A DNA stretch of 64,000 nt from an uncultured Spirochaetales bacterium (GCA_964567895.1 CAZMOX010000001.1:20992-84991), one strand, 5' to 3'. Shown: positions 3,501 through 33,948, counted from the stretch's first letter. Made by a program: numbers and translations. The notes: a model not told the origin generated them from the letters alone.

Positions 3501-4340
3501 ACAGCAGTCTTACAGCGGGATCAGAATAGTGTAAAAATGCTCATAGAATATGGAGCATCTCTTGAATCCAGAGATAATGTGGGAAGGACTCCCCTTCTGC
3601 TTGCAACAAGAAAGAATTACTGGGAGTTATCAGAACTTCTCATATCACTTGGAGCAGACTTCAATGCGAGAGATAACCGGGGAAATACACCGCTTCATGA
3701 GGCAATCCGGAACAGAAATGAAAAAATATGTACTATTCTAATTGAAGAGGGTGCAGCAATTTTTGCCGAAAATCGGTATGGGGACACCCCTATCAGTCTT
3801 GCGTTTACGGCTGGGGTTGATGTTGTGGACTGGTTTATAAAAGGAGATTCTATATCTGCAAGAGATGATAAAGGTAATACTCCAATCCATTCGGCAATCC
3901 AGAACAACTCTTCCGGGGATATTATCAATCTGTTGATCAGTAAAGGTGCAGATATAAACAGCAGAAATAATTGGATAAATACACCACTGCATACAGCATT
4001 CCTTTCTCTCAATAAAAATGCAGTACTTATCCTCAGTGCGGCCGGAGCTGATATTTTTTCAAGAAATGGCGATGGAAATTCACCTCTTTCCATAGCTTTC
4101 TCTGTGGGTACAGATTCATTATCCTGGATTGTTACGGCCGAAAACAAAGATGTTACAGATCAGTATGGAAATACTCCGCTTCATATTGCAGCTTCCTATG
4201 GGAACAAAGATGCGGTTATCTATCTTATGTCGATTGGAATTTCATCTGAAATAAAAAATCTGGCAGGCGATACGCCGGCAGATATGGCAAGAAAACAGGA
4301 TCATCCGGAACTTGCAACGCTGTTGAGGGAAATTGAGTAA
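573..4340 (+). CDS. large ankyrin-repeat lipoprotein. N-terminal signal peptide with lipobox LVSC, a ~330-aa acidic E/P/V/I-rich low-complexity linker, then more than 20 consecutive ankyrin repeats (roughly 25-27 by length)
   Basis: The N-terminus MRKIFGVLITALLLSLFLVSC gives a signal peptide with a Cys lipobox. Recurrent ankyrin consensus motifs (GNTPLHxAA..G, xxLLxxGADxNxxxxxGxTPL) run from about aa 370 to the C-terminus. Confidence 0.85.
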   Translation: MRKIFGVLITALLLSLFLVSCESYEVVREPVIVESVEPIAAPAADISDSTPSTEAVPEQEPEAETRQSEPEIEIELAVEEPIVEPIADETPVLEPIEAEIVEVEIEEEISEPVIKEVAPIETLETELPVEEPPAEVLVTEPAIPEEELVETIPESEPEPEVVMEIIIEEPVIEPIADETPVLEPIEAEIVEVEIEEEISEPVIKEVAPIETLETELPVEEPPAEVLVTEPAIPEEELVENVPESQPEDIVIEFPLSLPVLSNERHPEKTTPDLKTTTPETPIVTELPESAIIETEDEIVEPEVLVEPEITEIPPEPEPESVPESSVEPEASPEVSEEPEISETPAVHDVSAVPEVPVVKYVSIFDSIRDNELTVTERFILDGADPNQIDEFGTPPLYIAAGTGNELMISLLLKHEADPSVPNAEGQLPIHAAAEISYELASLLTGNGSLIFSVSELGINTLEKALLDGPKAVTELLGEDLVNTADEYGNTPLHLAAEMGGVENVRQLLINGADINIRNNNDLLPLDVAFGYTHSGKHVQVVEELIKNYSDIPSNQTFYYAFQAISNTGVDSRFENGATVLHYTAQYNHPALMSMFIKRGAYLEARDENNNTPIHIAVEYGNLEIVELLIHSGVDVDVRNGSSSTPLHLAVTQSGKKDIIEYLLDSGADINSRNIFGDTALHISVDPEVSSEFVKLLLLRNADPNSCDKTGNTPIMLALARDNREAVELLLANNADLYAKNYNKITPLIRALMKGTGVINWFYTPEMNKTIDAYGNTPLHTAVTNRAEIDVVDFIVNAGADLNKKNFLGDTALHSAVEVDYVDAAALMIDYGADPFLANNRGKAPAVLAFERGIEFTSRLITTENLSMTDISGNTPLHLAAQWDYLDIVSDLIEQGADVNTHNKEGFTPIHYAAKNNSSEVCLILANNSALIDARDSYGNTPLHTAVSWESVQAAKFLLFRGANVHLRNLSGNTPLHTAVLQRDQNSVKMLIEYGASLESRDNVGRTPLLLATRKNYWELSELLISLGADFNARDNRGNTPLHEAIRNRNEKICTILIEEGAAIFAENRYGDTPISLAFTAGVDVVDWFIKGDSISARDDKGNTPIHSAIQNNSSGDIINLLISKGADINSRNNWINTPLHTAFLSLNKNAVLILSAAGADIFSRNGDGNSPLSIAFSVGTDSLSWIVTAENKDVTDQYGNTPLHIAASYGNKDAVIYLMSIGISSEIKNLAGDTPADMARKQDHPELATLLREIE
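821..1291. repeat. two identical 204-bp segments (821-1024 and 1088-1291) repeated with a 267-bp period inside the acidic linker of the ankyrin lipoprotein
   Basis: Direct sequence identity of gaaccaattgccgatgaaactcctgtccttgagccgattgaagctgaaatagtggaagtagaaatag...ggaagaagaactagttgaaa at both positions. The repeat encodes the duplicated peptide EPIADETPVLEPIEAEIVEVEIEEEISEPVIKEVAPIETLETELPVEEPPAEVLVTEPAIPEEELVE. Confidence 0.9.
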
Positions 4341-6825: not shown

Positions 6826-8064
6826 TTACTCGTATTCCTTCTGCAGCGCCCTGGTGAAATCACCTAGATCCTTTATTGCCTGATCTACATCAACTTCTCC
6901 TTTGGCAACCCTTATGAGAGAGTTTTTCAATTCTGTCTCAAATTCCGCGAACCATGGAGTACTGTAGGGCAGAGGAATAACATACTTTGCCTGTTCGGAC
7001 ATGGCATCCCATCCGTCAATCTTTCCCTGGGCACCCAGATCGGCAAATACTTGTTTGTTGGCCGGAAACATACCGTTTCCTTCATAGCCGAAAAGCTGGG
7101 GTTCTTCAGAAACCATGAATTCTATGAAGCTCAGAGCAGCCTGGGGATATTCGCTGTAGCTGGAAATAGCAAGACCTGCCGGGAGAGACCAGGTGAAATG
7201 CTGTTCCGGAAGCAATAGATAGTCGGCATTGGGCGCGGTTTTTGATTTTTCAGGATTATTGGCAATAGCCAGAGATCCCTGCCATGCCTGATGAAAAGCT
7301 GCTTGTCCTGCCCAGAAAGAGGGGTGCGCGTTGGGTGATGTAAGTCTTTCGGGTGAAATCATTCCCATCTCAAACCACTTAATGAGTCTTTTGTATGCAT
7401 CATAAGCGGGGTCTGCCGGGTCATCAAAAGTGGGATTGCCGTCTTTATCAAACAGGGTAGATCCTGATGAAAGGGAAATCAGGTACCATGACCAATGTCT
7501 TACAGCAATTGCCAAAGGATATTCATATATTCCCTCATTTTTCAGTTTGAGAGAGATGTCCTCGAAATCCTGCCATGTTTTTATTGCATCAGCGGATGTC
7601 CCAATTTTTTCAAGAGCTGATTTGTCATAATCAATCATTACCATCTGCTGGTATATTGGGACCGCATAGGTGTCCCCATCCATCTGGAAAAAGTTTTTTC
7701 CCGCTACCTTGTTAAAAACAGAATCCGGAACAATACTATCAAGTTCCGCAAGAATCCCGGAGTTGCCGAATGTGCCGAAATGACTTATACCTACAAAGAT
7801 GATGTCTGCAGGATTAACTTTTCCTGCAGCAGCCTGCATTACCTTTGTTTTAAGATCCGCGTCCTTCAGTGTCGAAACTTCCACTTTGATTCCGGATTGG
7901 GCTTCAAACTTAGCCAGAAGTTCTTCCGATGGTGCTCCCCATGAGGGTGTAATGTAGATTAGTTTATCGGGTTTTGCTTCTTCCTGTGCTGCATCTTGTT
8001 TTCCAGCTGCAAATGCGGATACGGTGATAATCAGAATAATTAATACTAAAAAGAGCTTTTTCAT
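6826..8064 (-). CDS. ABC transporter extracellular solute-binding protein (family 1, sugar-type)
   Basis: N-terminal signal peptide MKKLFLVLIILIITVSAFAAG. At 412 aa, its length and composition are typical of sugar substrate-binding proteins. It heads a three-gene operon with the two permeases. Confidence 0.8.
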   Translation of the reverse strand: MKKLFLVLIILIITVSAFAAGKQDAAQEEAKPDKLIYITPSWGAPSEELLAKFEAQSGIKVEVSTLKDADLKTKVMQAAAGKVNPADIIFVGISHFGTFGNSGILAELDSIVPDSVFNKVAGKNFFQMDGDTYAVPIYQQMVMIDYDKSALEKIGTSADAIKTWQDFEDISLKLKNEGIYEYPLAIAVRHWSWYLISLSSGSTLFDKDGNPTFDDPADPAYDAYKRLIKWFEMGMISPERLTSPNAHPSFWAGQAAFHQAWQGSLAIANNPEKSKTAPNADYLLLPEQHFTWSLPAGLAISSYSEYPQAALSFIEFMVSEEPQLFGYEGNGMFPANKQVFADLGAQGKIDGWDAMSEQAKYVIPLPYSTPWFAEFETELKNSLIRVAKGEVDVDQAIKDLGDFTRALQKEYE

Positions 8065-8192
8065 TGCTTACCTCCTGCGTAATAACTCAATTATAAAATG
8101 GCTCCGCCTGTCTGTCAATAAAAAAATATTTTATTTTTTATTATTGGTGATGAAATTTTATTTCAAAACATTTTGACAAAAGTAAGGTTTTT

Positions 8193-9350
8193 ATGCATAA
8201 TGAGTATATGAGAAAAAATAAAGCAATAGGACTCATGTCCGGTACTTCAGTAGACTCTATAGACGCGGCTGTTGTTGATATTGAGGAATCAGATAACTCT
8301 GTTTCTGTAAAACAGATAACAGGAATCGCCTTTTCAATACCCCGGGCTGTCAGAAGTTCTATTTTTGCACTATTTGAGGACAGTAAGGGGTCTTTAAGAA
8401 ATCTCGTTATTATGAATACGGTGCTAGGAGAACTCTTCGCGGAAGCGACAGAACATCTTCTCAGATGTACCAGTCTTGAGCCTGAAGATATTACAGTGAT
8501 AGGATCTCATGGCCAGACTATATATCATCTATCTGAAAAGGTGGAATGCTGCGGCCGGGGGGTAAGGGGTTCCCTTCAGATAGGAGAGGGTTCTATTATT
8601 GCCAGGAAAACAGGGATTCCAACAGTAACCGATTTTAGGCCTGGTGATATCGCGGCCGGAGGTTCCGGGGCTCCTTTGGTACCTTTCTTTGACCTGATTT
8701 TGTCGAAGGAGATGGGGTATAACACTGCTTTTCAGAATATCGGGGGTATTGGGAATGTTACTTTTATAGAAAAACAAGGCGGCAGGCCGATTGCTTTCGA
8801 TACAGGGCCGGGAAACATGATTGTCGATTACCTTGCATCTGAATATTCCGGTGGACAGCTGCAATATGATAAAGATGGGAAAATCGGTAGAGAAGGAAGG
8901 GTAAGGGAAGATCTTCTAGGTGAGTGGATGCACCATCCTTTCTTCCTAAAACCACCACCCAGGTCTACAGGCAGAGAGGAATTCGGCTCTGAGTTTTTCA
9001 ATACCTATCTGAAAGGGGTAGAGATAAACAGCGATCTTGTTAGGACTGCCGAGGAATTTACTGTCAGGACTATTGTTGGTTCGTATAGAAAACATCTGTC
9101 CGGAAAGCCTTCGACACTGATAGTAACCGGCGGGGGAGCTCACAATCCAGTAATCATGAACTCCCTCAAAAAAGAGCTGAAAGAGTGCAGGATACTTACC
9201 GGGGACGAGGCGGGGATAAGCACTGATTATAAGGAAGCAGCAGCTTTTGCGCTTCTTGGATATTTTGCCTATCGAAAACGGGTCAATAATGTACCCGACG
9301 CGACAGGCGCGGAAGGCGAAGCTGTGATGGGAAAACTGTCACTTCCCTGA
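8193..9350 (+). CDS. anmK: anhydro-N-acetylmuramic acid kinase (the start may be the ATG at 8208)
   Basis: N-terminal GLMSGTSVDSIDAAVVDI matches the AnmK signature (MSGTSxDGID), and the whole protein fits the AnmK family. Its length is 385 aa. Confidence 0.85.
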   Translation: MHNEYMRKNKAIGLMSGTSVDSIDAAVVDIEESDNSVSVKQITGIAFSIPRAVRSSIFALFEDSKGSLRNLVIMNTVLGELFAEATEHLLRCTSLEPEDITVIGSHGQTIYHLSEKVECCGRGVRGSLQIGEGSIIARKTGIPTVTDFRPGDIAAGGSGAPLVPFFDLILSKEMGYNTAFQNIGGIGNVTFIEKQGGRPIAFDTGPGNMIVDYLASEYSGGQLQYDKDGKIGREGRVREDLLGEWMHHPFFLKPPPRSTGREEFGSEFFNTYLKGVEINSDLVRTAEEFTVRTIVGSYRKHLSGKPSTLIVTGGGAHNPVIMNSLKKELKECRILTGDEAGISTDYKEAAAFALLGYFAYRKRVNNVPDATGAEGEAVMGKLSLP

Positions 9351-9357
9351 AAATCTT

Positions 9358-10281
9358 ATGAATAAACAGGAGAATAAAATGGATCATCTTGCAAGCCTGA
9401 CCACCGAGCAGTCAAATCCAAGATCACAGGATATAGATACAAAGAGTACATTTGAGATTCTGGAAATAATAAACAGTGAGGATATGGTTATCCCACGGGT
9501 AATTGAAGGTGTTCTCGATAATATTGCCGCAATTGTGGACGCGGCAGTTCACTCCTTCAGAAACGGTGGCAAGCTCTTCTATGTTGGGGCCGGTACCTCA
9601 GGAAGACTTGGCGTACTCGATGCGTCAGAATGTCCTCCCACCTTTGGGACTGATCCTGAAATGATTCAGGGAATAATTGCCGGAGGAAGGGAAGCTCTTA
9701 CTACGGCTGTAGAATGGGCTGAGGATAATGAGGATGAGGGCAGAAAAGCTTTGACTGAAAAAGGAATATGTGAAAAGGATATTGTAATTGGGATAACGGC
9801 CAGCGGCCAGGCTCCATTTGTAATTGGTGCCATGAAACAGGGCAGAGAAGCCGGCGCTGTAGTTTGTGCAATAAGCAGCAACAGTAATTCAAGGACTTTT
9901 GCTTATGCTGATCATAAAATCTGTATCGATGTGGGTCCGGAGATTATTACGGGATCGACCCGTATGAAGTCGGGAACAGCTCAGAAACTCGTGTTGAACA
10001 TGATAACCACAGCCTCAATGATTCGTCTTGGAAAGGTGTTTAATAACCTTATGGTTGATCTTGTTCCCGTAAACAGCAAACTTGTCAACCGTTCAAAAAG
10101 GTTGATCATGCAGATCTGCAACTGTGACGAAAAGACTGCAGCAAAGGCTTTCAAGGACTGTGGGAAAAAGCCTAAGACAGCGATTGTGTCTCTTCTTCTG
10201 GATGTCCCGGCAGAAAAAGCAAGGACTCTCCTGAAAAATAACGATGAACACATTGGCCTCGTTTTAAGGAACTTTCATTAG
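9358..10281 (+). CDS. murQ: N-acetylmuramic acid 6-phosphate etherase (SIS domain). The start may be MDHL at 9379.
   Basis: MurQ signature residues include LTTEQSNPRSQDID, GAGTSGRLGVLDASECPPTF and ITASGQAPFVIGA. It lies directly downstream of anmK. Confidence 0.85.
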   Translation: MNKQENKMDHLASLTTEQSNPRSQDIDTKSTFEILEIINSEDMVIPRVIEGVLDNIAAIVDAAVHSFRNGGKLFYVGAGTSGRLGVLDASECPPTFGTDPEMIQGIIAGGREALTTAVEWAEDNEDEGRKALTEKGICEKDIVIGITASGQAPFVIGAMKQGREAGAVVCAISSNSNSRTFAYADHKICIDVGPEIITGSTRMKSGTAQKLVLNMITTASMIRLGKVFNNLMVDLVPVNSKLVNRSKRLIMQICNCDEKTAAKAFKDCGKKPKTAIVSLLLDVPAEKARTLLKNNDEHIGLVLRNFH

Positions 10282-10284
10282 GCT

Positions 10285-11100
10285 ATGAAGATTTTTGTAC
10301 TCATAAAGCAGGTTCCCGAGACTGATGGGTTGGTACTGGATGAAGAAACGGGAGCTGTAAAAAGAGACGGTGTTGAATCGATTGTAAATCCCCTCGACCT
10401 GTATGCCCTTGAGTCAGCTTCCAAATTCAAAGAAAAATATGAAAACTGTGAAATAACGGCAATTTCCATGGGTCCCTCCGGGGCTGAGCGGGCACTCAGA
10501 GAAGCCTTGTCCATGGGGGCTGATAAGGCTGTTCTCCTGTCTGACAGAGCCTTTGCAGGCTCTGATACATTTTCAACATCATATATCCTGAGTAAGGGGA
10601 TTGAATCCCTCGGCTTACCGGAACTCATAGTTTGTGGGGAAAAGGCAACAGATGGGGACACATCCCAGGTGGGGCCGAGAACCGCTTCTTTTTTGAATCT
10701 ACCGGTTGTATCTTTTGTCTCAAAGATTACCGTCTCCGGAAGCAAATTGATTCTGGAGAGAATGGTTGAATCAGGGGTGGAAAAGATAGGGGCAGGATTT
10801 CCCTTGCTGATTACAGTAGTAAAGGCTATCGGGGAACCCAGGCTCCCTACTCTTTTCGGAAAAAGAAAGGCCAGGGAAGCTGGAATCCCTGTTGTTGGAG
10901 TGGAGAGTCTGGAGCTGGATAGAAACCTTATTGGAACAGGGGGATCTCCCACAAGGGTGTATAAAATCCATTCGCCTAATATATTCAGAAAGCCGGTAAT
11001 TGTAAACGCCAGGAATGATGATGAGATCGAAACAGCGGTTGAACTGATAATAGATTTTCTTCGTTCGAAAGGGCTTATCCCGGCTGGAGGCAGAGAGTGA
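10285..11100 (+). CDS. etfB: electron transfer flavoprotein beta subunit
   Basis: MKIFVLIKQVPETDGLVLDEETGAVKRDGVESIVNPLDLYALESA is the canonical EtfB/FixA N-terminus. Confidence 0.9.
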   Translation: MKIFVLIKQVPETDGLVLDEETGAVKRDGVESIVNPLDLYALESASKFKEKYENCEITAISMGPSGAERALREALSMGADKAVLLSDRAFAGSDTFSTSYILSKGIESLGLPELIVCGEKATDGDTSQVGPRTASFLNLPVVSFVSKITVSGSKLILERMVESGVEKIGAGFPLLITVVKAIGEPRLPTLFGKRKAREAGIPVVGVESLELDRNLIGTGGSPTRVYKIHSPNIFRKPVIVNARNDDEIETAVELIIDFLRSKGLIPAGGRE

Positions 11101-12095
11101 GCATACGGAGAATATGGGTTCTTGGGGAAACCGGGGACATGAGAATAAAGAAGGTTTCCTTTGAACTTATCGCATGGGCAGCTTCTCTGGGAGATAGAGA
11201 GAGGACTGAAGTTTCCGTTGTTCTTCCCGGAGAGGTGGACAATCCGGAGGAACTTTGTTTTTATGGGGCCGACCGGGTACTTCACCTCAATTATCCCGAG
11301 CTAAACCATTTTTCTCCGATCCCCTGGAGCAACGCTGTCTCCTTTCTGCTAAACGGTACAAGGCCGGATGTTTTCCTGGCTGCGGCAATGACTACGGGCA
11401 AAACACTCATGCCCTATGTTGCCGCGAAGCATGAACTTGGACTGACAGCAGACTGTACAAGTCTTGAGTTTGATATGAAGAGCGGCATACTTCTGCAGAC
11501 ACGTCCCGCTGCAGGGGGTAATATAATGGCTACAATAAAAACGATTAAGGGTCTTCCCCAAATGTCTACTCTACGGCCTAATTCGATCAGGATACTCGAA
11601 CGGGATGAGAGTAGATGTGTATCTGTGGAAGAGATTGCAGTTTCCGAAAACCTGATGGTCCCAAAGCTTGAGTATCTTGGGTTTGAACCCTACAACAAGG
11701 ATGAAAAAGATATCCAGGAAGCGGTTTCCATCGTCGCGGGCGGGAAAGGGATGAAAAAGAAAGACAATTTTCAGCTCCTCGAGAATCTTGCGGTTGTACT
11801 TGGCGCCCAGATAGGTGCTTCAAGGGAAGCTGTCGACAAGGGATGGGTCCCTTATCCTGAACAGATAGGATTGAGTGGAAAAACCGTTACCCCGGATCTT
11901 TATATTGCCGCAGGCATATCCGGGGCAATCCAGCATCTTGCGGGGATGCACACGGCCGGCACGATCATATCTATCAACGAGGATCCTGATGCCCAAATTT
12001 TCAATATATCCGATTATGGCCTTGTCGGGGATCTTTTCAGAATACTCCCTGTGCTGACAGACCGGTTGAGATCAGCCGTCCCGGAGAAGGAATAG
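11097..12095 (+). CDS. etfA: electron transfer flavoprotein alpha subunit (GTG start overlapping the etfB stop)
   Basis: FAD-binding C-terminal motif PDLYIAAGISGAIQHLAGM and a 4-bp overlap with etfB. Confidence 0.85.
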   Translation: MSIRRIWVLGETGDMRIKKVSFELIAWAASLGDRERTEVSVVLPGEVDNPEELCFYGADRVLHLNYPELNHFSPIPWSNAVSFLLNGTRPDVFLAAAMTTGKTLMPYVAAKHELGLTADCTSLEFDMKSGILLQTRPAAGGNIMATIKTIKGLPQMSTLRPNSIRILERDESRCVSVEEIAVSENLMVPKLEYLGFEPYNKDEKDIQEAVSIVAGGKGMKKKDNFQLLENLAVVLGAQIGASREAVDKGWVPYPEQIGLSGKTVTPDLYIAAGISGAIQHLAGMHTAGTIISINEDPDAQIFNISDYGLVGDLFRILPVLTDRLRSAVPEKE

Positions 12096-12099
12096 ACTG

Positions 12100-12825
12100 A
12101 TGAACATGATGAACCAGACCTATCAGAAAGTTTCCGCCGGAATTATTGAGAGGCTTGTTGATATTTGCGGCAAGAGAAACGTTTATACCGGCGAAGAGAA
12201 AATGGAAGCCTACTCTCATGACGAAGTAGCGGAATCTAAATACTTCAGAATGCCGGGGGTCGTAACCAATACGATAAATGATGTCCTGAAAGAAGATGGG
12301 TTATGGTTCGCGGGATATCCCATGAGTCTCGAAACATGTTTTATTGGTGGGAATGTCGCGGATAACAAAACGACAATTGAGAGGATCTGGAATATCCGCA
12401 GGAATATTGCCGAAGCCTTCAAGGTGAAGAGCTCTCATCAGAGTCTGGAGGATATTGTTGTACCCACCGCTGCCATACCTTCATTCATGGATGAACTACA
12501 GCTTCTGATAAAAAAGTATGATATTCCTGTTCCCTGTTATGGACACGCGGGTGACGGAAATCTTCACGCTACTGTTGTAAAGCCTGGCGGGATGTCCCCT
12601 TCTGACTGGGAAGAGAAGCTTCCCCTGCTTCTGGAAGATATCTACAAGATTACCGCCTCTCTGGGATGGGTCATATCCGGGGAACACGGAATTGGGTCAA
12701 AACGGAAAAACTTTATTGGAATAAATCTCTCTCCCGATGAAATAGCCCTTATGAAAAGACTCAAAAAGGCTTTTGACCCCAACTGGATCCTGAATCCCGG
12801 AAAGATATTCCCGGATGAGGACTGA
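12100..12825 (+). CDS. FAD-linked oxidase (GlcD/LctD-like) remnant. The ORF is in frame, but two internal segments (FAD-binding PCMH core and cap region) are missing.
   Basis: The N-terminus YSHDEVAESKYFRMPGVV and the C-terminal FAD-oxidase_C motifs (CYGHAGDGNLH, GEHGIGSKRK, NPGKIF) are present. Only about 70 aa separate them, where full-length members have about 300 aa. Confidence 0.6.
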   Translation: MNMMNQTYQKVSAGIIERLVDICGKRNVYTGEEKMEAYSHDEVAESKYFRMPGVVTNTINDVLKEDGLWFAGYPMSLETCFIGGNVADNKTTIERIWNIRRNIAEAFKVKSSHQSLEDIVVPTAAIPSFMDELQLLIKKYDIPVPCYGHAGDGNLHATVVKPGGMSPSDWEEKLPLLLEDIYKITASLGWVISGEHGIGSKRKNFIGINLSPDEIALMKRLKKAFDPNWILNPGKIFPDED

Positions 12826-13888
12826 CGGTATGATCGACTCGATTATTGATGATGAATTGAAAATGGGAACTTTTCCGGGAATTGTTATTCTTGTCAGAAA
12901 AGAAGGACACATTGTACTTTCTATGGCTAAGGGACAAAGGCAGATATACCCGGATTCTGAAGAAATGACATTCGATACAGTTTTTGATCTTGCTTCTCTG
13001 ACAAAGCCCCTGGCTACGACTGTAACCGCCCTTTCTATCCTGGAAAAAGAGAAATTATCTCCCTTGAGTGAAGCTGGAAAATTTATTCCTGAACTTGCAA
13101 AAGGAACAGCTTCTATTACTCTTCATCAGCTTTTTACCCACACTTCCGGACTTCCGCCTGTACCGGAAATCTTTAGGCTTTTCCCGGTAGAAGATGATAT
13201 TGATCAGGAAAAATCCTTGAGTCATCTTTATTCAATTACTCCAACAGTAAAGCCTGGAGTTCGGGTCATATACAGTTGTACAGGGTATATCCTTCTTACC
13301 CAAATCCTGAAAAGGATAACCGGAAGTGATCTTCCCGAACTATTTACGAGACTTATTACGGTTCCTGGGACAATCGATAGTCTTATGTTCAATCCCCCCG
13401 CGGGAACAGGAAATATCGCCCCTACCGAATATTGTTCCTGGCGAAAGAGATGGCTTAAGGGGGAGGTTCATGACGAGAATTCATACTGCCTGGAGGGGGC
13501 GGGAGGTAATGCCGGACTATTTGGGACTGCTTCCGGTGTACTGGAAATACTCAGTCTGTTTAGGGATGACGGGGTTCTGAATAACAATCAAGTCCTCTCA
13601 AAGAAGAGTGTGAGGCTGATGACTTCTAATCAAACCCCCGGCCTTTCGCCAAAAAGGGCATATGGATTTCTGATGCAGGATGAGGGGGTCATGGCTGGAC
13701 CTGCCTTTAGTCCGGAGGCTTTCGGTCATACAGGTTTTACCGGCACAAGTGTCTGGATCGATCCGGATAGAAAACTTGAGTTTGTGATTTTCACTAACAG
13801 GGTTCACCTTGGAAGGAATACAAACAGCGATAAGATCAAATCCTTCAGGGAAAGGATACATACCGCCCTTGTCCGGGAACTTTGCTAA
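12815..13888 (+). CDS. serine hydrolase, beta-lactamase/AmpH-like family
   Basis: Active-site S-x-x-K motif in FDLASLTKPLATT. At 357 aa the size fits class C beta-lactamase or PBP-like esterases. Confidence 0.75.
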   Translation: MRTDGMIDSIIDDELKMGTFPGIVILVRKEGHIVLSMAKGQRQIYPDSEEMTFDTVFDLASLTKPLATTVTALSILEKEKLSPLSEAGKFIPELAKGTASITLHQLFTHTSGLPPVPEIFRLFPVEDDIDQEKSLSHLYSITPTVKPGVRVIYSCTGYILLTQILKRITGSDLPELFTRLITVPGTIDSLMFNPPAGTGNIAPTEYCSWRKRWLKGEVHDENSYCLEGAGGNAGLFGTASGVLEILSLFRDDGVLNNNQVLSKKSVRLMTSNQTPGLSPKRAYGFLMQDEGVMAGPAFSPEAFGHTGFTGTSVWIDPDRKLEFVIFTNRVHLGRNTNSDKIKSFRERIHTALVRELC

Positions 13889-13900: not shown

Positions 13901-14755
13901 TTACTTAGTGAATCTCTTAATTGCCCTTACCTTTCTGGTTCTATCCAGATACTTTTTTATTTCCGGATATTCAATGCTGCCCACACCGGTAAAAAGGATA
14001 TCAATGACATTCAATTGAGCAATACGTGAGCCGCGGGCCCCGCTTCTCATACTTGTTTCGGGGGAGGATATAAACAATTTGATGTCCGCTTTTTCGCTTA
14101 AAGTATTATTTCCGAATTTTGTGATTGAAATTGTTGTGGCACCTGTCGTTTTTGCAATTTTTATAGTCTCAACCATATCTCTTGTCTCTCCTGAATAGGA
14201 GATAAATACCGCTACATCCACCATTGAAAGGTTCGCCGCGGCGGTTGCCTGAAGATGAGTGTCCGCGTAGGCCATTGAATATCTGTTGATCCTCATAAAT
14301 TTCTGCTGGGCATCAAGAGCAATGATTCCTGATGCTCCTACACCATAGAAATCGATTCGTTTTGACATATGCAGGACATCTACAGCCCTTTTAATCTCCT
14401 TCGGATCCAGAACAAGGAGGGTATCAGTTATCGATTTTTTATTATTGTGAGAAACATTCTTGATTATCGTATCGAGATTATCTCCGACCCGAATATCTGT
14501 ATATATCTCTTCATTTTCCTTTGTCGATGAGATGTCGGAAGCCATCTTGATTGCAAATTCCCTGTATCCCTCAAATCTCAGGGTTTTACAGAAACGGATA
14601 ACAGCCGCATTGCTGGTGTTGCACCTTTCCGCGAGTTCTCCAACAGAAAGTCCAACGGATTCCTCTGGAAAATTGAGTATATAACTGGCAACCTTTTTTT
14701 CTGATGGTTTTAAATCGTTTAATGCTTCTTTAACTTTTAAAAGACATCCGTTCAT
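13901..14755 (-). CDS. MurR/RpiR-family transcriptional regulator (HTH plus SIS domain)
   Basis: The HTH VGELAERCNTSNAAVIRFCKTLRFEGYREF is typical of RpiR, with a C-terminal SIS domain. It overlaps the upstream nagZ by 4 bp. Confidence 0.8.
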   Translation of the reverse strand: MNGCLLKVKEALNDLKPSEKKVASYILNFPEESVGLSVGELAERCNTSNAAVIRFCKTLRFEGYREFAIKMASDISSTKENEEIYTDIRVGDNLDTIIKNVSHNNKKSITDTLLVLDPKEIKRAVDVLHMSKRIDFYGVGASGIIALDAQQKFMRINRYSMAYADTHLQATAAANLSMVDVAVFISYSGETRDMVETIKIAKTTGATTISITKFGNNTLSEKADIKLFISSPETSMRSGARGSRIAQLNVIDILFTGVGSIEYPEIKKYLDRTRKVRAIKRFTK

Positions 14756-16254
14756 TTAACAGTCTCCGTATTAGATTTTATGAATAGTTTTTGCAATATT
14801 TCTTTCTGCTGGCTGCTACTATATCCAAATGAGCAAATTGCATTTTCAATACCCCTGATATCTGCATCATAGGGGTTCCTTAGCGCGATCAGCACAAGAT
14901 CATCAGAAAGCCTGGCTAGCTTCTCTATGAACTCTACCTGTGAGAGTGCAAGGTGTGCGTTTTCTGTAAAGATGATATTTCGTTTCCCTGCCGCAGTCTT
15001 TAACAGGGAAGCTGATTCTTCTTTAGAAATTTCCCTGCTGTAAACAGTTATAGGACACTTCAGGAACTCTCCGGTTCTGGTCACAGCCATGTGTATTCCC
15101 TGCAGGGTGTCTTCCACCAGTACAAGCCTGGCTGCTTTAACCGCAAAAATATTGTCAACCCTGTTTAAGGGGATAAGATTGCTCCTGTTTTTCCGTATTC
15201 TTACCGATTCTGAGGATATTCTGTCCATTTCAACCCTGTTGTCCTCAAATTCCAAACGGATATCAGCAGGGGGTTCTGTTTCTTTACGCTGCCTGAACAG
15301 ATTTTCAATCCTGCCCGCGGCCCCGGAGATTCTTTCCGCGAGCTTATCGTTTTCGACAATCTTCCCATCCAGAAACTTCCTGACTTGTATCTGTTTTTCC
15401 GTATTATCACAGAAAGAGATCATGTCCATCCCCGCTTCCAGTGTTTTTAATGCGATTTCTTCAGGGGGATAGAAATTGGACACTCCCCCCATATTGAGAT
15501 CATCTGCAATAAGAACTCCTTCATACTTTAATTCATCCCGGATCATATCTGTAAGGACTTCCCTGGAAACAGTTATAGGCTCCTTTGAAGTCTGGATTGC
15601 AGGTACATGGATATGTGTAGGCATCCAGCTTGGAGAATTAATAGCAAGAAAGGGCGCAAGTTCAGTCCGGTATATCTCATCCCTGGAAATATTGAGAATG
15701 GGCATATCCAGATGAGGATCGGTAACAACTCTTCCGATTCCGGGAAAGTGTTTCAGGCATGTTATGATCCCGCTCTCCCTCAAGCCTGCTGTAAACTTCG
15801 AAGCATACTCAATTACAGTATCCTTGTCCCTGGAAAAACTCCGAATACCGATACCCGGGTTCTGAGAATTATTGTTGATATCGACCACCGGCGCAAGGTT
15901 CCAGTCAATACCGACTGCCTTCATTTCTGATCCGAGTATTATTCCTGCTCTGTATGCATTGTTCGGATTCTCTGTAGATGCCAACGCCATGGCGCTGGGT
16001 GAAACAGTAAATCCCTTTGTAAGTCTTGTGACTATTCCTCCCTCCTGATCAATTGCTATGAGTGGTTTATAGCCAAGGAAGTCTGTAATTCCCCTGATAA
16101 AAGCTACAACCTGCTCTCTATCTTTTATATTTCGCCCAAACAGAATGACTGATCCCGGCCGTACTACCTCAAGCACTCTTTTCGCCGGATCATTAATTTC
16201 CGAGGAGGGTAATCCAATCATGAAAATTTTTCCGGTCAGCTCCTTCAAATCCAT
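14752..16254 (-). CDS. nagZ: beta-N-acetylhexosaminidase (glycoside hydrolase family 3)
   Basis: GH3 N-terminal motifs LIAIDQEGGIVTRL and KHFPGIGRVVTDPHLDMP. The protein is 500 aa. Confidence 0.85.
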   Translation of the reverse strand: MDLKELTGKIFMIGLPSSEINDPAKRVLEVVRPGSVILFGRNIKDREQVVAFIRGITDFLGYKPLIAIDQEGGIVTRLTKGFTVSPSAMALASTENPNNAYRAGIILGSEMKAVGIDWNLAPVVDINNNSQNPGIGIRSFSRDKDTVIEYASKFTAGLRESGIITCLKHFPGIGRVVTDPHLDMPILNISRDEIYRTELAPFLAINSPSWMPTHIHVPAIQTSKEPITVSREVLTDMIRDELKYEGVLIADDLNMGGVSNFYPPEEIALKTLEAGMDMISFCDNTEKQIQVRKFLDGKIVENDKLAERISGAAGRIENLFRQRKETEPPADIRLEFEDNRVEMDRISSESVRIRKNRSNLIPLNRVDNIFAVKAARLVLVEDTLQGIHMAVTRTGEFLKCPITVYSREISKEESASLLKTAAGKRNIIFTENAHLALSQVEFIEKLARLSDDLVLIALRNPYDADIRGIENAICSFGYSSSQQKEILQKLFIKSNTETVK

Positions 16255-16413: not shown

Positions 16414-17490
16414 TCATGGGATCATTGTGCCTGAAATCCCCAGTCCCGGAGCTTCAGGCAGCGTTATTACAGTACCATGATATTCGGTACCACCTTTTTC
16501 CTTTTTCTCGCTGCAGAGAAGGGGCACATCAAGATCCACCTCCCGGACTACTGCTCTCGCCGCTGCCAAATGAGCAGCGGCGGTCAAGCCTGCATGGCTC
16601 TCCATCATTGATCCAACCATACAGAAAAGACCGGCTGTTTCTGCAATATCCGCTATTTTAACCGCATTGTAGATCCCCCCGGACTTCATAAGTTTGATGT
16701 TTATTCCGTCAGCCGCTCCCATATTAACGATCCTCAGAGCATCCGCAGGGGAAAAAACACTTTCGTCTGCTATCACCGGAACCGTCACCCTCTCTCTGAC
16801 ATAACGCATTCCTTCAAAATCATCCGCACCAACAGGCTGTTCTACAAAATCGAGCCCGATACCCTCATTCTGCATGAGGTTTACAATCTCTACCGCTTCT
16901 TTCGGTTTCCATCCCTGGTTTGCATCAATTCTGAGCCTTACATCCGAGCCTGCCGCTTCCCGGACAGCCTTAATTCTGGCTAAATCCATTTCGGTATTTC
17001 CGCCGACCTTGATTTTTAGTATTTTTACTCCCTGACGCACTGCTTCCATGCTCTCTTCTGCCATCTCCTCAGGTGAATTAAGGCTGATAGTAAGATCTGT
17101 AACAAGGGTGTTTCTGAATCCCCCCAGAAGCCTGTAGACCGGTGCTGAATAGAACTTTCCATACAGATCGTAAATGGCCATATCCACTGCAGCTTTCGCG
17201 GAAGTGTTTCCGGCCATGGAGCCGTTGATTTTCTGCATTATTATTTCCAGGTTTCTGATATCGAGTCCTACTATCCTGTCTATGATAAACTGTATACCTT
17301 CTGTTATAGAACCAGCTGTATCCCCTGTTATCACAGCAGTCGGGGCGGCGCCGCCGTACCCGGTTTTATCGGAGTCAGTGGTAATCTCGATCAGAATATT
17401 CTCAATGGATTCGAGGGTTCTCAAGGCAGTCTTGAATGGTCTTTTCAGACCTGTTGACATCCGACTAATTTTTACTCCTGTTATCAGCAT
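16414..17490 (-). CDS. enolase-superfamily dipeptide epimerase (L-Ala-D/L-Glu epimerase-like, MR/MLE family)
   Basis: 358 aa. The capping and barrel domains carry metal-binding acidic residues in the MR/MLE pattern (IDANQGW...DESV...), as in muropeptide-recycling epimerases. Confidence 0.7.
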   Translation of the reverse strand: MLITGVKISRMSTGLKRPFKTALRTLESIENILIEITTDSDKTGYGGAAPTAVITGDTAGSITEGIQFIIDRIVGLDIRNLEIIMQKINGSMAGNTSAKAAVDMAIYDLYGKFYSAPVYRLLGGFRNTLVTDLTISLNSPEEMAEESMEAVRQGVKILKIKVGGNTEMDLARIKAVREAAGSDVRLRIDANQGWKPKEAVEIVNLMQNEGIGLDFVEQPVGADDFEGMRYVRERVTVPVIADESVFSPADALRIVNMGAADGINIKLMKSGGIYNAVKIADIAETAGLFCMVGSMMESHAGLTAAAHLAAARAVVREVDLDVPLLCSEKKEKGGTEYHGTVITLPEAPGLGISGTMIP

Positions 17491-17495: not shown

Positions 17496-17927
17496 CTATG
17501 TAATTCCTTTCTGTTGGTTTTTCCAGTCTGATCTGATCCTCATAAGGTTGGCGGTGTCTGATAATTCTGAAATTGTCTTGACTGCACCGGTGTTCTCTAC
17601 CAAGTGATTATAGTGATTATAGTGATTATAGTGATTATGATCATACCACCGGTGCCAGGTTCCAGTCAATGCCAGCTGCCCTGTACGCATTGTCCGGATT
17701 CTTTGTAGATGCCAGCGCCATGGCACCGGGTGAAACAGTAAATCCTTCCGTAAGTCTTCAATTGCCCTGATAAAACCTACAACCTGCTCTCTATCTTTTA
17801 TATTTCGCCCAAACAGAATGACTGATCCCGGCTGTACTACCTCAAGCACTCTTTTCGCCGGATCATCAATTTCCGGGGAGGGTAATCCAATCATGAAAAC
17901 TTTTCCGCTCAGCTCATCTAAATCCAT
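17496..17927 (-). pseudogene. decayed duplicate of the nagZ 5' end. About 58 N-terminal codons are conserved, followed by out-of-frame junk with internal deletions.
   Basis: The translation MDLDELSGKVFMIGLPSPEIDDPAKRVLEVVQPGSVILFGRNIKDREQVV closely matches the NagZ N-terminus at 16254. The DNA of 17648-18000 aligns to 15890-16350 with two deletions. Confidence 0.8.
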
Positions 17928-32632: not shown

Positions 32633-33948
32633 AAAAAAACCTGAATTTTTCATTAGAGAATGAGCCTCAATTTGCTGTTGCCATAATTGGGGCAGGGCCG
32701 GCGGGGTTGGCCGCTGCTTTCGGGGCGGCAAAAGCGGGTGCTGAATCTGTCGTAATTATTGAACGGAACTATCAACCTGGAGGAATTCTCAACCAGTGTA
32801 TTCACGATGGTTTTGGTTTACACCGATATAATGAATCTCTCTCCGGGCCGGAATATGCTGCCCGGGAAAATAATATTTTACAGAATAAAGAGATAATTGA
32901 TAAAATCACCCTGTTAGCCGGAACCTTTGTTCAAGATCTCGTACCGGAAAATCAGGGTTTTTCGCTTGCAGTTATGTCTTCAGGATCTTTTAGGGTAATA
33001 AGAGCGGCGGCTGTTGTTTTAGCTATGGGTTGTCGGGAGCGAACCGCCGGTGCAATCTCTTTACCAGGAACCAGGCCTGCCGGAATCTTTACTGCAGGAA
33101 CAGCCCAACGCCTAATGAATATGCAGAATATAAGTGTTGGTAAACGTGCTGTTATTATTGGATCGGGTGATATTGGACTAATAATGGCCAGAAGGCTTAC
33201 CCTGGAAAGCGCTGACGTTGCCGCGGTTACTGACATACAGCCCTATCCCGGGGGACTCGACCGGAATGTTAGACAATGTCTTCATGATTTTAATATTCCG
33301 CTTATGCTATCCACCGGAGTCGTTAAAGTACATGGGAAAAAACGGGTTGAAGGAATTACTGTTGCCCCCCTGGATACTTTAGGTAATTTGGAATTATCAT
33401 CATCAACCTATATTTCCTGTAATACCATTCTACTCTCAGTAGGTCTTATACCGGAACATGAACTGGCAAGGGGTGCCGGTGCGGCACTGGATACATCCAC
33501 ACAAGGTCCAATAGTTGACCAGCATCTTATGACAACAGTTCCAGGGTTGTTCGCCTGCGGAAATGTACTGCAGGTGCATGATCTTGTCGATTTTGTATCG
33601 GAAGAAGCGGAGTATGCCGGATCTTGTGCGTCTAACAAGGTACTTACCCCACCCCGGCTCTCTATAGAAACCACTCAGGCCAACAGCACCACTTTGTCTT
33701 TAAAAGTAGGATCCAATTTGCGTTATGTGCTTCCTCATACCATTACAGAACCAGGCCGCATAACTCTCTCTATGCGTGTAACCGTACCGGAAGTAAATTT
33801 CCGTGTCCATGTAGCACGTCTGGAAAAAAGTGCTGACAGGATCCTGTTAACAAAAACATTCAGCAGAGTGTCACCATCTGAGATGTTACGATTTACCTTT
33901 AACTGTGATACAGTTGAGCCCTTGGAGGTGTATGGTGAATCTTTCTGA
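32629..33948 (+). CDS. FAD/NAD(P)-binding pyridine nucleotide-disulfide-type oxidoreductase (second subunit of the triad)
   Basis: Two dinucleotide-binding folds, AIIGAGPAGLAAAFGAA and VIIGSGDIGLIMARRL. There is a 4-bp overlap with the upstream gene. Confidence 0.7.
   Translation: MKKNLNFSLENEPQFAVAIIGAGPAGLAAAFGAAKAGAESVVIIERNYQPGGILNQCIHDGFGLHRYNESLSGPEYAARENNILQNKEIIDKITLLAGTFVQDLVPENQGFSLAVMSSGSFRVIRAAAVVLAMGCRERTAGAISLPGTRPAGIFTAGTAQRLMNMQNISVGKRAVIIGSGDIGLIMARRLTLESADVAAVTDIQPYPGGLDRNVRQCLHDFNIPLMLSTGVVKVHGKKRVEGITVAPLDTLGNLELSSSTYISCNTILLSVGLIPEHELARGAGAALDTSTQGPIVDQHLMTTVPGLFACGNVLQVHDLVDFVSEEAEYAGSCASNKVLTPPRLSIETTQANSTTLSLKVGSNLRYVLPHTITEPGRITLSMRVTVPEVNFRVHVARLEKSADRILLTKTFSRVSPSEMLRFTFNCDTVEPLEVYGESF

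What the first reader, a model, noticed from the sequence alone, without database searches (positions are those of the whole stretch)
10285..12825. etfBA followed by a GlcD/LctD-like oxidase that lost its FAD-binding core by in-frame deletions
EtfB-EtfA-(FAD-linked 2-hydroxyacid dehydrogenase) is the gene order of electron-bifurcating lactate dehydrogenase/Etf complexes.

Here the third gene keeps the N-terminal YSHDE...MPGVV segment and the complete C-terminal cap (CYGHAGDGNLH, GEHGIGSKRK, NPGKIF). It is missing about 240 residues, including the PCMH FAD-binding domain, yet the reading frame stays open at 241 aa.

This is either a recently decayed gene or a repurposed non-catalytic subunit. 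It also sits inside a peptidoglycan-recycling island.
Basis: partly seen in the sequence, partly recalled or inferred. Interest (0 to 1): 0.55.

Follow-up and report, generated by a model that had tools for sequence, protein, structure and literature searches.

The report
Gutted D-lactate dehydrogenase gene in MurNAc operon
A D-lactate dehydrogenase gene in a cell-wall-sugar recycling operon has lost half its length, including its flavin-binding core, through two in-frame deletions; only this one species shows the loss, so it is most likely a young, still-open pseudogene.

Summary
etfB (10285-11100), etfA (11097-12095) and a 241-aa LctD/GlcD-like ORF (12100-12825) lie in one tightly packed operon: anmK-murQ-etfB-etfA-ORF-PBP4B-like. 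Compared with the intact 469-aa orthologue in a fully collinear relative (L029), the ORF has two in-frame deletions of 70 and 167 codons.

These remove the FAD pyrophosphate loop, most of the PCMH domain and the first ~95 positions of the cap domain.

Both junctions sit in short direct repeats (CCnG; GTn-GCn-GA, a 10-nt exact repeat in L011).

Seven related murQ-etfBA loci hold a full-size dehydrogenase gene (six intact at 469-484 aa; L034's carries a 1-nt frameshift). MurQ releases D-lactate, which would make this dehydrogenase its disposal step. An exhaustive search of 1.84 billion representatives found no other protein with the short architecture.

The short form is fixed in at least 30 contigs from independent assemblies of one species. 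It carries a common Y147C variant at a conserved aromatic next to a metal ligand. The rest of the remnant is not detectably degraded.

Verdict: a recent, lineage-specific loss of function. The frame probably stays open because of in-phase repeats, youth and perhaps translational coupling to the downstream gene. A repurposed subunit is unlikely but not excluded.

The parts
8173..8201 (+). sigma-70-like promoter match (TTGACA-17-CATAAT) in front of the anmK operon; a divergent 12/12 match at 8118-8090 faces the ABC-transporter genes
   Evidence: This is a consensus match only; the number of matches in the region is no greater than in shuffles.
8193..9350 (+). anmK, anhydro-N-acetylmuramic acid kinase
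   Evidence: Pfam AnmK 2.8e-98. NCBIfam NF007148 scores 414 bits against a cut-off of 387.
9358..10281 (+). murQ, MurNAc-6-phosphate etherase; its products are GlcNAc-6-P and D-lactate
   Evidence: NCBIfam NF003915 394 bits (cut-off 168) and TIGR00274 356 bits (cut-off 302). The reaction is as described in PMC6165865.
10285..11100 (+). etfB, bifurcating-type small Etf subunit; Gly124 matches the Gly123 determinant of A. fermentans
   Evidence: Pfam ETF. PDB best hits are the bifurcating Etfs 4kpu_B, 6fah_B, 5ol2_B and 7qh2_B at 172-183 bits, against 81-93 bits for canonical Etfs; the DGDT alignment is in the same call. The Gly123 criterion is from PMC12630350.
11097..12095 (+). etfA, large Etf subunit; intact, with no N-terminal ferredoxin domain
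   Evidence: Pfam ETF + ETF_alpha. It aligns to LctC residues 82-391 only. It deviates at 3 of 100 conserved columns, which is within the family range of 0-9.
12100..12825 (+). 241-aa remnant of lctD (FAD-dependent D-lactate dehydrogenase, GlcD/VAO family)
12100..12252 (+). segment A, aa 1-51: the N-terminal lead-in up to YSHDEVAESKYFRM, matching L029 aa 1-43
12250..12258 (+). junction 1 (ATG|CCG GGG): 70 codons are missing, including the RGAGSGLSGG FAD pyrophosphate loop; the microhomology is CCnG
   Evidence: Codon-level comparison with L029 and L011.
12253..12366 (+). segment B, aa 52-89: a surviving 38-aa piece of the PCMH FAD-binding domain
   Evidence: 82% identical to L011 aa 119-156. 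The Pfam FAD_binding_4 match is sub-threshold at 18.6 bits against a cut-off of 26.4.
12355..12366 (+). junction 2 (GTC GCG GAT AAC = VADN): 167 codons are missing; the crossover lies inside the direct repeat VAEN/VADN
   Evidence: L011 keeps an exact 10-nt repeat, ACGTTGCAGA, at both ends of the deleted block.
12355..12825 (+). segment C, aa 86-241: second half of the cap domain plus the C-terminal arm, carrying metal ligands H149, H156 and E195 and catalytic base H196
   Evidence: Pfam FAD-oxidase_C positions 96-248. Residue mapping uses the alignment to 7qh2_C, with residue roles.
12539..12539 (+). polymorphic site: A in the window (Tyr147, ancestral), G in 9 of the 20 fetched same-species loci (L001-L004, L006-L010) (Cys147)
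   Evidence: The position is Y in 70, F in 9 and I in 1 of 80 sequences (the window's own plus 79 homologues), and never C.
12815..13888 (+). PBP4B-like serine hydrolase (beta-lactamase fold); its start overlaps the remnant's stop by 11 nt (an alternative ATG at 12830 lies 4 nt after the stop)
   Evidence: Pfam Beta-lactamase 6e-47. The best NCBIfam hit is PBP4B, below its cut-off. The overlapping or abutting stop/start is conserved in L029-L032.
13901..14755 (-). RpiR/MurR-family regulator
14752..16254 (-). GH3 beta-N-acetylhexosaminidase (NagZ-like)
   Evidence: NF003740, 220 bits against a cut-off of 207.
16414..17490 (-). MR/MLE-family L-Ala-D/L-Glu epimerase-like gene

Best explanation
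ORF 12100-12825 is a recently inactivated lctD, the FAD-dependent D-lactate dehydrogenase partner of a bifurcating-type EtfAB.

**Ancestral role (inferred).** In this group of Spirochaete-like bacteria the operon anmK-murQ-etfB-etfA-lctD-PBP4B-like degrades MurNAc. MurQ splits MurNAc-6-P into GlcNAc-6-P and D-lactate. LctD/EtfAB then oxidises the D-lactate to pyruvate, probably by the ferredoxin- and NAD-linked confurcation known from A. woodii.

**What happened here (shown).** In this species, two deletions between short in-phase direct repeats removed 70 and 167 codons. One repeat is CCnG; the other is about 10 nt, GTn-GCn-GA. Lost with them were the FAD pyrophosphate loop, most of the FAD-binding domain, the first half of the cap domain and half of the residues that dock EtfB.

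**Consequence (inferred).** Any product cannot hold FAD in the family's way, so it cannot oxidise lactate or pass electrons to Etf. D-lactate from MurNAc must be excreted or handled by another enzyme.

**Why the frame is still open (inferred).**
- Recombination between repeats that encode the same peptide in the same phase is automatically in frame.
- Too little time has passed for further decay.
- Possibly, only in-frame lesions keep ribosomes running to the overlapping start of the downstream PBP4B-like gene. That junction is conserved in the relatives.
For: **Orthology and breakpoints**
- L029 is fully collinear from the GNAT gene to the epimerase and holds a 469-aa gene in the same slot.
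- The three homology blocks and codon-level junctions were mapped against it.

**Restricted to one lineage**
- A full-size gene follows murQ-...-etfB-etfA in L011, L029, L030, L031, L032, the P0124 contig and L034; six are intact at 469-484 aa. The L034 copy is disrupted by a 1-nt frameshift, and there a kinase gene separates murQ from etfB.
- No second protein with the short architecture exists among 1.84 billion representatives.
- The ~240-aa look-alikes are plain C-terminal halves with a complete cap domain.
- No full-length allele of this species appears in the 5.8-billion-cluster search.

**Real and fixed**
- At least 30 contigs from several assemblers carry the ORF, at 99.7-100% nucleotide identity.

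**Loss of function**
- The Pfam FAD_binding_4 match is below threshold, and only positions 96-248 of FAD-oxidase_C remain.
- Of the Ldh residues listed as contacting EtfB in the A. woodii complex, positions 273, 277, 297, 301 and 312 fall inside deletion 2.
- AlphaFold gives pLDDT below 50 for aa 1-12, 23-50 and 71-86.

**Relaxed constraint (hints only)**
- Y147C, beside metal ligand H149, is present in 9 of the 20 fetched same-species loci (L001-L004, L006-L010); these loci were retrieved by allele, so this is not a population frequency. That position is never Cys in the 79 homologues.
- G190W sits where 78 of 78 homologues have Gly.

**Recent event**
- The remnant is 73.6% identical to L029, no lower than etfA (68%) or etfB (63.5%).
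- It shows no significant rate excess: 17 versus 11 unique changes.

**Pathway logic**
- MurQ yields D-lactate (PMC6165865).
- The same LctD subfamily sits in a lactate permease-etfBA-lctD-larA operon in L033.

**In-frame bias without selection**
- Deletions in multiples of three, linked to microhomology, are typical of bacterial pseudogenes (PMC6054270).
Against: - The ORF has no stop codon or frameshift. A Shine-Dalgarno-like AGAAGGA lies upstream, and it is tightly coupled to both neighbouring genes.
- All four metal and catalytic residues (H149, H156, E195, H196), plus R100, D118 and N154, are intact.
- It deviates from conserved family positions no more often than intact orthologues do: 3 of 62 against 1-5.
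- Two of the three population SNPs are synonymous.
- etfB and etfA are still intact. That is unexpected if their only partner died long ago.
- All of this fits equally well with continued selection on the remnant. No expression data were available.
Confidence: 0.78

Rival explanations
1. Repurposed small protein. The 241-aa product is made, and it is retained as an FAD-less metal- or 2-hydroxyacid-binding module. It could act as a sensor, a scaffold, or a partner for another FAD-binding subunit or for EtfAB.
For: - The frame is open and translational signals are retained.
- The metal triad and catalytic His are conserved.
- There is no excess of substitutions.
- AlphaFold models aa ~100-230 with good confidence.
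- EtfAB is kept intact.
Against: - It is confined to one species; all relatives keep a full-size gene.
- The cap domain is cut in mid-fold, and half of the EtfB-docking positions are gone.
- The N-terminal 86 aa are predicted to be disordered.
- A Y147C variant next to a metal ligand is carried by 9 of the 20 fetched loci, and G190W lies before the SGEHG motif.
- The AlphaFold confidence in the C-terminal part comes from an alignment of full-length enzymes. It says nothing about stability without the missing half.
Confidence: 0.1
2. The coding content is irrelevant and only the open frame is selected. The remnant then serves as a translated spacer that carries ribosomes from etfA to the overlapping start of the PBP4B-like gene. 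This would avoid polarity on a gene still needed for peptidoglycan recycling.
For: - The stop/start overlap or abutment between lctD and the serine-hydrolase gene is conserved in the window, L029, L030, L031 and L032.
- Both deletions are in frame.
- No internal promoter or terminator stands out.
Against: - In-phase repeats and youth explain the open frame without any selection. By chance alone, two deletions are both in frame 1 time in 9, and pseudogene deletions are biased towards multiples of three.
- In L011 the hydrolase gene lies elsewhere, so the coupling is not universal.
- This idea overlaps with the best explanation rather than excluding it.
Confidence: 0.1
3. Artefact or minority variant. 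The deletions would be assembly errors, or one haplotype among full-length alleles in the population.
For: None found. The one direct test could not reach these samples: a metagenome scan for the 26-mer left of junction 1 returned nothing, because that collection lacks these contigs.
Against: - The identical junctions occur in all 20 fetched loci, which come from megahit, JGI and Logan assemblies of different samples.
- Two alleles share both deletions.
- No full-length protein over 61% identical turned up in the 5.8-billion-cluster search.
Confidence: 0.02

Closest known systems
LctD, the Ldh subunit of the electron-confurcating Ldh-EtfAB (LctBCD) complex of Acetobacterium woodii (PDB 7QH2)
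   Same: - It is the best solved-structure match.
- The gene order etfB-etfA-ldh is the same.
- The metal ligands His/His/Glu and the catalytic His are conserved.
- The Etf is of the bifurcating type.
   Different: - The window protein lacks roughly LctD residues 45-114 and 155-313, which cover the FAD site, half of the cap domain and half of the EtfB-docking positions.
- EtfA lacks the N-terminal [4Fe-4S] ferredoxin domain. The A. woodii paper found that domain necessary for confurcation.
- The operon is a MurNAc/anhydro-MurNAc catabolic one, not a lactate permease/racemase operon.
Intact orthologues in relatives: L029 (469 aa), L011 (473 aa), L030-L032 (473-484 aa)
   Same: - The operon position is the same, after murQ-etfB-etfA.
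- The retained columns are 67-74% identical.
- The stop/start junction with the downstream serine-hydrolase gene is the same.
   Different: They are full length, with both Pfam domains. The window gene is 51% of that length.
Ldh-ETF-Bcd system of Fusobacterium nucleatum (canonical ETF; PMC12630350)
   Same: A GlcD-family D-lactate dehydrogenase is encoded next to etfBA and hands electrons to the Etf.
   Different: That Etf is canonical, with Phe in place of Gly123 and AMP in the beta subunit. The window EtfB has the Gly. There is also no bcd gene in the window operon.
E. coli murQ-murP-yfeW (PBP4B) operon with MurR (from my own knowledge of the literature; not checked here)
   Same: It combines a MurQ etherase, a PBP4B-like serine hydrolase and an RpiR/MurR regulator.
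   Different: E. coli has no etfBA-lctD in the operon; D-lactate is handled by the separate enzyme Dld. The window uses an ABC transporter and AnmK rather than the PTS MurP.
Bacterial pseudogenes formed by microhomology-flanked deletions in multiples of three (PMC6054270)
   Same: Both involve in-frame deletions flanked by short direct repeats in a gene that has lost function.
   Different: The deletions here are large (210 and 501 nt) rather than the few-nucleotide events analysed in that paper. The gene also shows no other lesion yet.

Membership tests
VAO/PCMH FAD-linked oxidase, GlcD/LctD-type D-2-hydroxyacid dehydrogenase | PCMH-type FAD-binding domain (Pfam FAD_binding_4) with the RGxGxGxxGG pyrophosphate loop | tested here: not met
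   The match scores 18.6 bits against a cut-off of 26.4, and only profile positions 70-109 of 139 are present. The loop lies inside deletion 1.
VAO/PCMH FAD-linked oxidase, GlcD/LctD-type D-2-hydroxyacid dehydrogenase | Complete substrate/cap domain (Pfam FAD-oxidase_C) | tested here: not met
   Only profile positions 96-248 of 248 are present. The cap domain is residues 219-417 in LctD, and the remnant resumes at about LctD residue 314.
VAO/PCMH FAD-linked oxidase, GlcD/LctD-type D-2-hydroxyacid dehydrogenase | Metal ligands His377/His384/Glu422 and catalytic His423 (A. woodii numbering) | tested here: met
   H149, H156, E195 and H196 align to these residues.
VAO/PCMH FAD-linked oxidase, GlcD/LctD-type D-2-hydroxyacid dehydrogenase | Descent from a family member (orthology by synteny) | tested here: met
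   L029 is collinear across 13 genes and has a 469-aa gene in the same slot.
Electron-confurcating Ldh-EtfAB (LctBCD) complex | Gene order etfB-etfA-ldh in one operon | tested here: met
   Relatives show the same order.
Electron-confurcating Ldh-EtfAB (LctBCD) complex | EtfB able to hold beta-FAD: Gly at A. fermentans position 123 | tested here: met
   Window EtfB Gly124, in DGDT, aligns to Gly123 of 4kpu_B. The criterion is from PMC12630350.
Electron-confurcating Ldh-EtfAB (LctBCD) complex | N-terminal ferredoxin ([4Fe-4S]) domain on EtfA, as in LctC | tested here: not met
   Window EtfA residues 14-323 align to LctC 82-391, so there are no residues for the extra domain. Other bifurcating Etfs, such as 4KPU, also lack it.
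Electron-confurcating Ldh-EtfAB (LctBCD) complex | Dehydrogenase surface that docks the EtfB recognition loop, and d-FAD facing alpha-FAD | tested here: not met
   Five of the ten listed Ldh contact positions (273, 277, 297, 301, 312) lie in deletion 2, and there is no FAD site.
Electron-confurcating Ldh-EtfAB (LctBCD) complex | Lactate + reduced ferredoxin + 2 NAD+ activity | not testable with these tools
   This needs biochemistry, both for the remnant and for the intact orthologues.
Pseudogene (unitary, by deletion) | Much shorter than orthologues, with loss of an essential domain, in one lineage only | tested here: met
   The ORF is 241 aa against 469-484 aa. The short form is found only in this species.
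Pseudogene (unitary, by deletion) | Evidence of neutral evolution: stops, frameshifts, raised substitution rate, or pN/pS near 1 | tested here: inconclusive
   There are no stops or frameshifts. The relative-rate test gives 17 versus 11 unique changes, which is not significant. There are 3 SNPs, 1 non-synonymous, at a conserved site. The sample is too small, and it is biased by how the contigs were retrieved.

The most novel reading that the evidence does not exclude
The two deletions carved a new small protein out of LctD. It would consist of the metal- and 2-hydroxyacid-binding half of the cap domain plus the C-terminal arm, fused to short N-terminal pieces. It would be kept in the MurNAc operon as an FAD-less D-lactate or metal-binding module that acts with, or regulates, the still-intact bifurcating EtfAB. 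That would be domain-level gene birth by internal deletion, caught at the population stage.
Probability: 0.07. Interest if true: 0.6.

Novelty: new member of a known kind. Interest (0 to 1): 0.3.

Why it matters
**The truncated gene.** It is an ordinary event, a young lineage-specific loss of function, but an unusually clean example. Both breakpoints can be read at codon level against intact syntenic orthologues. Both lie in short in-phase repeats. The gene shows no other damage yet. It therefore illustrates how an automatic annotation of 'FAD-binding oxidoreductase' can hide a dead enzyme.

**The context it exposes.** This is the more useful by-product. Seven related loci place a bifurcating-type etfBA plus an LctD-type dehydrogenase gene in the same gene cluster as murQ, directly downstream in six and after a kinase gene in L034. 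MurQ's by-product is D-lactate. This suggests that some anaerobic Spirochaete-like bacteria hard-wire an Etf-coupled D-lactate oxidation step into MurNAc catabolism. I found no paper in the searchable library that combines MurQ, D-lactate and electron transfer flavoprotein. That library holds open-access papers only, so this is not proof of novelty.

**What the species offers.** It is a natural knock-out of that step.

Tried and rejected
1. **Assembly artefact: rejected.** The junctions are identical in 20 loci from three assembly sources, and two alleles share them.
2. **Conserved short family: rejected.** phmmer against 1.84 billion representatives found only the species' own cluster matching residues 1-241 in one stretch. 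Ten proteins of similar length proved to be complete FAD-oxidase_C halves with a different architecture.
3. **Paralogue in the window that could replace the gene or convert it: none found.**
   - The 468-aa ORF at 34506-35912 is a B12/radical-SAM protein.
   - The only other PCMH-family gene, 52682-54451 (589 aa), is 29% identical and sits with a sugar kinase, an SDR and an aminotransferase.
   - No trace of the deleted segments exists elsewhere in the window.
4. **Relative-rate and conserved-site tests for accelerated decay: no significant signal**. They only exclude an old pseudogene.
5. **SNP density: suggestive, not usable as a statistic.** The remnant has 3 segregating sites in 726 nt, against about 9 in 15 kb of flanks. 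However, the contigs were retrieved by exact match to the two protein alleles, and coverage differs along the locus.
6. **dN/dS against L029 or L011: not attempted.** At 63-77% amino-acid identity, synonymous sites are saturated.
7. **Scan of metagenome contigs for an undeleted allele: uninformative.** The 26-mer left of junction 1 gave no hits because that collection does not hold these samples.
8. **Global MAFFT alignment: not used for breakpoints.** It misplaced the N-terminal segment across the gaps. Breakpoints were taken from BLASTP blocks, a low-extension-penalty pairwise alignment and codon inspection.
9. **AlphaFold model: limited value.** It shows which parts lack support, but it cannot say whether the C-terminal part is stable on its own.
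Full report
**What is there**

Between 8193 and 13888 the plus strand carries six tightly packed genes:
- anmK (8193-9350)
- murQ (9358-10281)
- etfB (10285-11100)
- etfA (11097-12095, overlapping etfB by 4 nt)
- a 241-aa ORF (12100-12825, starting 4 nt after etfA)
- a beta-lactamase-fold gene (12815-13888, overlapping the ORF's stop by 11 nt)

Pfam and NCBIfam confirm the gene identities. AnmK and MurQ pass their equivalog and subfamily cut-offs. The two Etf subunits have ETF and ETF + ETF_alpha. The last gene is most like PBP4B, although below that model's cut-off.

On the minus strand follow an RpiR/MurR regulator, a GH3 NagZ-like hexosaminidase and an L-Ala-D/L-Glu epimerase-like gene. Upstream, and divergent, lies an ABC sugar transporter. 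A consensus promoter pair sits in the 8064-8193 gap; this is a pattern match only.

**The 241-aa ORF**

It matches FAD-oxidase_C at E = 4e-36, but only profile positions 96-248 of 248. It also gives a sub-threshold 40-residue match to the middle of FAD_binding_4. The best solved relative is LctD of the A. woodii Ldh-EtfAB complex (7qh2_C, E = 1e-27). Three collinear pieces align to it: query 7-47 to LctD 2-42, query 52-92 to 115-154, and query 89-236 to 317-463.

The cap domain is not complete. LctD's cap spans residues 219-417, and roughly its first 95 residues are missing here.

**Orthologues and breakpoints**

A scan of GTDB genomes found a Spirochaetales MAG (L011). It has murQ-etfB-etfA followed by a 473-aa gene and then the RpiR regulator.

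A search with EtfA found a closer relative, L029 (EtfA 68-70% identical). L029 is collinear with the window over 13 genes and holds a 469-aa gene in the slot of the 241-aa ORF.

Against L029 the window gene lacks 70 codons (about aa 45-114) and 167 codons (about aa 148-314), both in frame. At codon level:
- Junction 1 reads ATG|CCG GGG GTC. The relatives have ATG CCn GAn GCn GTn GTn on the left and GAn CCn GGn GTn GTn on the right, so they share CCnG.
- Junction 2 reads AAT GTC GCG GAT AAC. It lies inside the repeat pair NVAEN...YVADN.
- In L011 both copies of that repeat share the exact 10-mer ACGTTGCAGA.

These are the signatures of slippage or microhomology-mediated deletion between short direct repeats. 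Because each repeat pair encodes the same peptide in the same phase, the deletions are in frame by construction. A bias towards deletions in multiples of three, linked to microhomology, has been described for bacterial pseudogenes (PMC6054270).

**What was lost and what was kept**

Lost:
- the RGAGSGLSGG pyrophosphate loop and the first alpha+beta subdomain of the FAD domain
- the end of the FAD domain (NAGGG onward)
- the first half of the cap domain
- five of the ten Ldh positions that contact EtfB in the A. woodii complex: 273, 277, 297, 301 and 312

Kept:
- the N-terminal lead-in
- a 38-residue stretch of the FAD domain
- the second half of the cap domain and the C-terminal arm
- R100, D118, H149, N154, H156, E195 and H196, which correspond to LctD R328, D346, H377, N382, H384, E422 and H423

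AlphaFold, run with 79 homologues as the alignment, gives pLDDT below 50 for aa 1-12, 23-50 and 71-86. Confidence is good only for about aa 100-230. That confidence is inherited from full-length relatives.

Without an FAD site, the protein cannot do the family's chemistry.

**Is the short form a family?**

No.
- The 5.8-billion-cluster search found the species' own cluster and then nothing above 61% identity.
- The exhaustive phmmer run over 1.84 billion representatives found only that cluster matching residues 1-241 in one stretch. Full-length proteins matched in two or three stretches, and short ones matched only the C-terminal part.
- Ten representatives of 233-250 aa were checked. All are complete FAD-oxidase_C halves.
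- Every related murQ-etfBA locus examined has a full-size gene: six intact at 469-484 aa (L011, L029, L030, L031, L032 and the P0124 contig), plus L034, whose gene carries a 1-nt frameshift.

**Is it real and fixed?**

Yes.
- The window's exact protein (P0121) is indexed in 36 blocks of the collection. A variant (P0001) is on 10 further contigs. The sources are ENA, JGI, Logan and NCBI.
- Twenty fetched loci are 99.7-100% identical to the window, and all contain the junction sequence.
- The two alleles differ by a synonymous site (12411) and by Y147C (12539). Tyr is ancestral: the position is Y in 70, F in 9 and I in 1 of 80 aligned sequences (the window's own plus 79 homologues). It lies two residues before metal ligand H149.
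- A third SNP, at 12405, is synonymous.
- The remnant also has Trp at position 190, where 78 of 78 homologues have Gly.

These are hints of relaxed constraint. They are few, and the contigs were retrieved through these very alleles, so they cannot serve as a statistic.

**How old is the lesion?**

Young, relative to the split from L029.
- The retained columns are 73.6% identical to L029. That is higher than etfB (63.5%), etfA (68.0%), anmK (62.6%) and the hydrolase (62.2%).
- With L011 as outgroup, the window branch has 17 unique changes against 11 in L029, which is not significant. The figures for etfA are 34 against 23, and for murQ 19 against 18.
- The remnant departs from family-conserved positions at 3 of 62 columns, against 1-5 for intact orthologues.
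- EtfA is normal at 100 conserved columns.

These results exclude an old pseudogene. They cannot separate 'recent' from 'still constrained'.

**The Etf**

- EtfA and EtfB score far higher against bifurcating Etfs (A. fermentans 4KPU, CarDE 6FAH, C. difficile 5OL2, LctBC 7QH2) than against canonical ones.
- EtfB has Gly124 at the position (Gly123 in A. fermentans) that is invariant in bifurcating Etfs and bulky in canonical ones.
- EtfA lacks the N-terminal ferredoxin domain of LctC. In this respect the module resembles the A. fermentans type rather than the A. woodii type.

**Why it sits in a peptidoglycan island**

MurQ cleaves MurNAc-6-P into GlcNAc-6-P and D-lactate (PMC6165865). A D-lactate dehydrogenase directly downstream of murQ therefore completes the pathway.

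The linkage murQ-etfB-etfA-lctD recurs in seven relatives. It usually comes with the PBP4B-like gene, the epimerase, NamZ or NagZ, a BcrAD/BadFG-type kinase and MurR.

The same LctD subfamily also occurs in a classical lactate operon with lactate permease and LarA racemase (L033). More distant etfBA-lctD loci in Victivallales and Thermotogaceae lack murQ.

I found no paper combining MurQ, D-lactate and electron transfer flavoprotein in the searchable library. That library is limited to open-access papers.

**Most likely mechanism**

Shown:
- descent from an intact LctD
- two repeat-flanked in-frame deletions
- loss of the FAD site and half of the cap domain
- restriction to one species, and fixation within it

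Inferred:
- The product is catalytically dead.
- The ancestral complex oxidised MurQ-derived D-lactate through EtfAB.
- The frame remains open because of in-phase repeats and youth.
- Possibly, out-of-frame lesions would uncouple translation of the downstream hydrolase gene. That gene's start overlaps or abuts the lctD stop in the window and in L029-L032.

**Verdict**

The finding is real and correctly read, apart from the 'complete cap'. It is most likely a young unitary pseudogene. Its interest as such is low to moderate. The conserved MurNAc-Etf-LctD cassette that it reveals is the more noteworthy result.

Noticed in passing
L011 4704-9068; L029 7263-11407; L030 4276-8425; L031 4267-8437; L032 4266-8446; L034 23-5122: The cassette murQ-etfB-etfA-lctD, with a bifurcating-type Etf and a full-size dehydrogenase gene, is conserved in MurNAc/peptidoglycan-utilisation loci of several Spirochaete-like metagenomic lineages. 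In L034 a kinase gene separates murQ from etfB and the lctD gene carries a frameshift. The arrangement implies Etf-coupled oxidation of the D-lactate released by MurQ. No description turned up in the searchable literature.
   Followed up: partly
L033 3687-5122 and L034 3703-5122 (also 21 of 79 database homologues): Many of the closest database homologues are gene calls that start at the same internal Met. In L033 and L034 the cause is an independent 1-nt frameshift in a C/G homopolymer tract (CCCCGGGGGCC and ACCCCCCCGGGGGGC). That tract encodes the TPRGAG FAD-pyrophosphate loop. This is either a sequencing-error hot spot or a real slip-strand inactivation site; it was not resolved.
   Followed up: partly
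window 17496-17927 (-), with repeats 16079-16288/17752-17961, 15945-16027/17676-17758 and 16323-16368/17965-18010: A 143-aa ORF is a partial copy of the 5' end of nagZ plus its upstream region (88-98% identical). It runs into an NHYNHYNHY repeat. This is a second sign of local rearrangement or decay in this locus.
   Followed up: partly
L005 about 8800-10950 (same species; diverges from the window after about 17689): One population variant carries a DDE_Tnp_1 transposase and a 202-aa ORF where the window has other sequence. This is an IS insertion polymorphism next to the recycling locus.
   Followed up: no
window 19777-20279 (inside ORF 19412-20731, AlaX-like tRNA-synt_2c/tRNA_SAD): About 40 SNPs cluster in 500 nt between the window and contigs L001/L002, in a locus that is otherwise over 99.9% identical. 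This looks like a recombination tract from a diverged allele.
   Followed up: no
window 52682-54451 (+): A second PCMH/VAO-family flavoprotein (589 aa, with both Pfam domains complete, 29% identical to LctD). It is flanked by an FGGY sugar kinase, an SDR and an aminotransferase, and is unrelated to the Etf locus.
   Followed up: partly
window 31088-34393 and 47603-50753: Two paralogous gene pairs, each a DAO-family flavoprotein with a BFD-like [2Fe-2S] domain followed by a Pyr_redox_2 protein. The second pair lies behind a GntR/FadR regulator.
   Followed up: no
window 573-4340 (+): A 1255-aa protein made almost entirely of ankyrin repeats (Pfam Ank, E = 4e-133), which is unusual for a bacterium. 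Its length differs among the population contigs (597-1052+ aa calls that run off the locus ends).
   Followed up: no
window 28095-30488 (-): A family-B DNA polymerase (797 aa, with exonuclease and polymerase domains). I did not check whether it is a chromosomal Pol II homologue or part of a mobile element.
   Followed up: no
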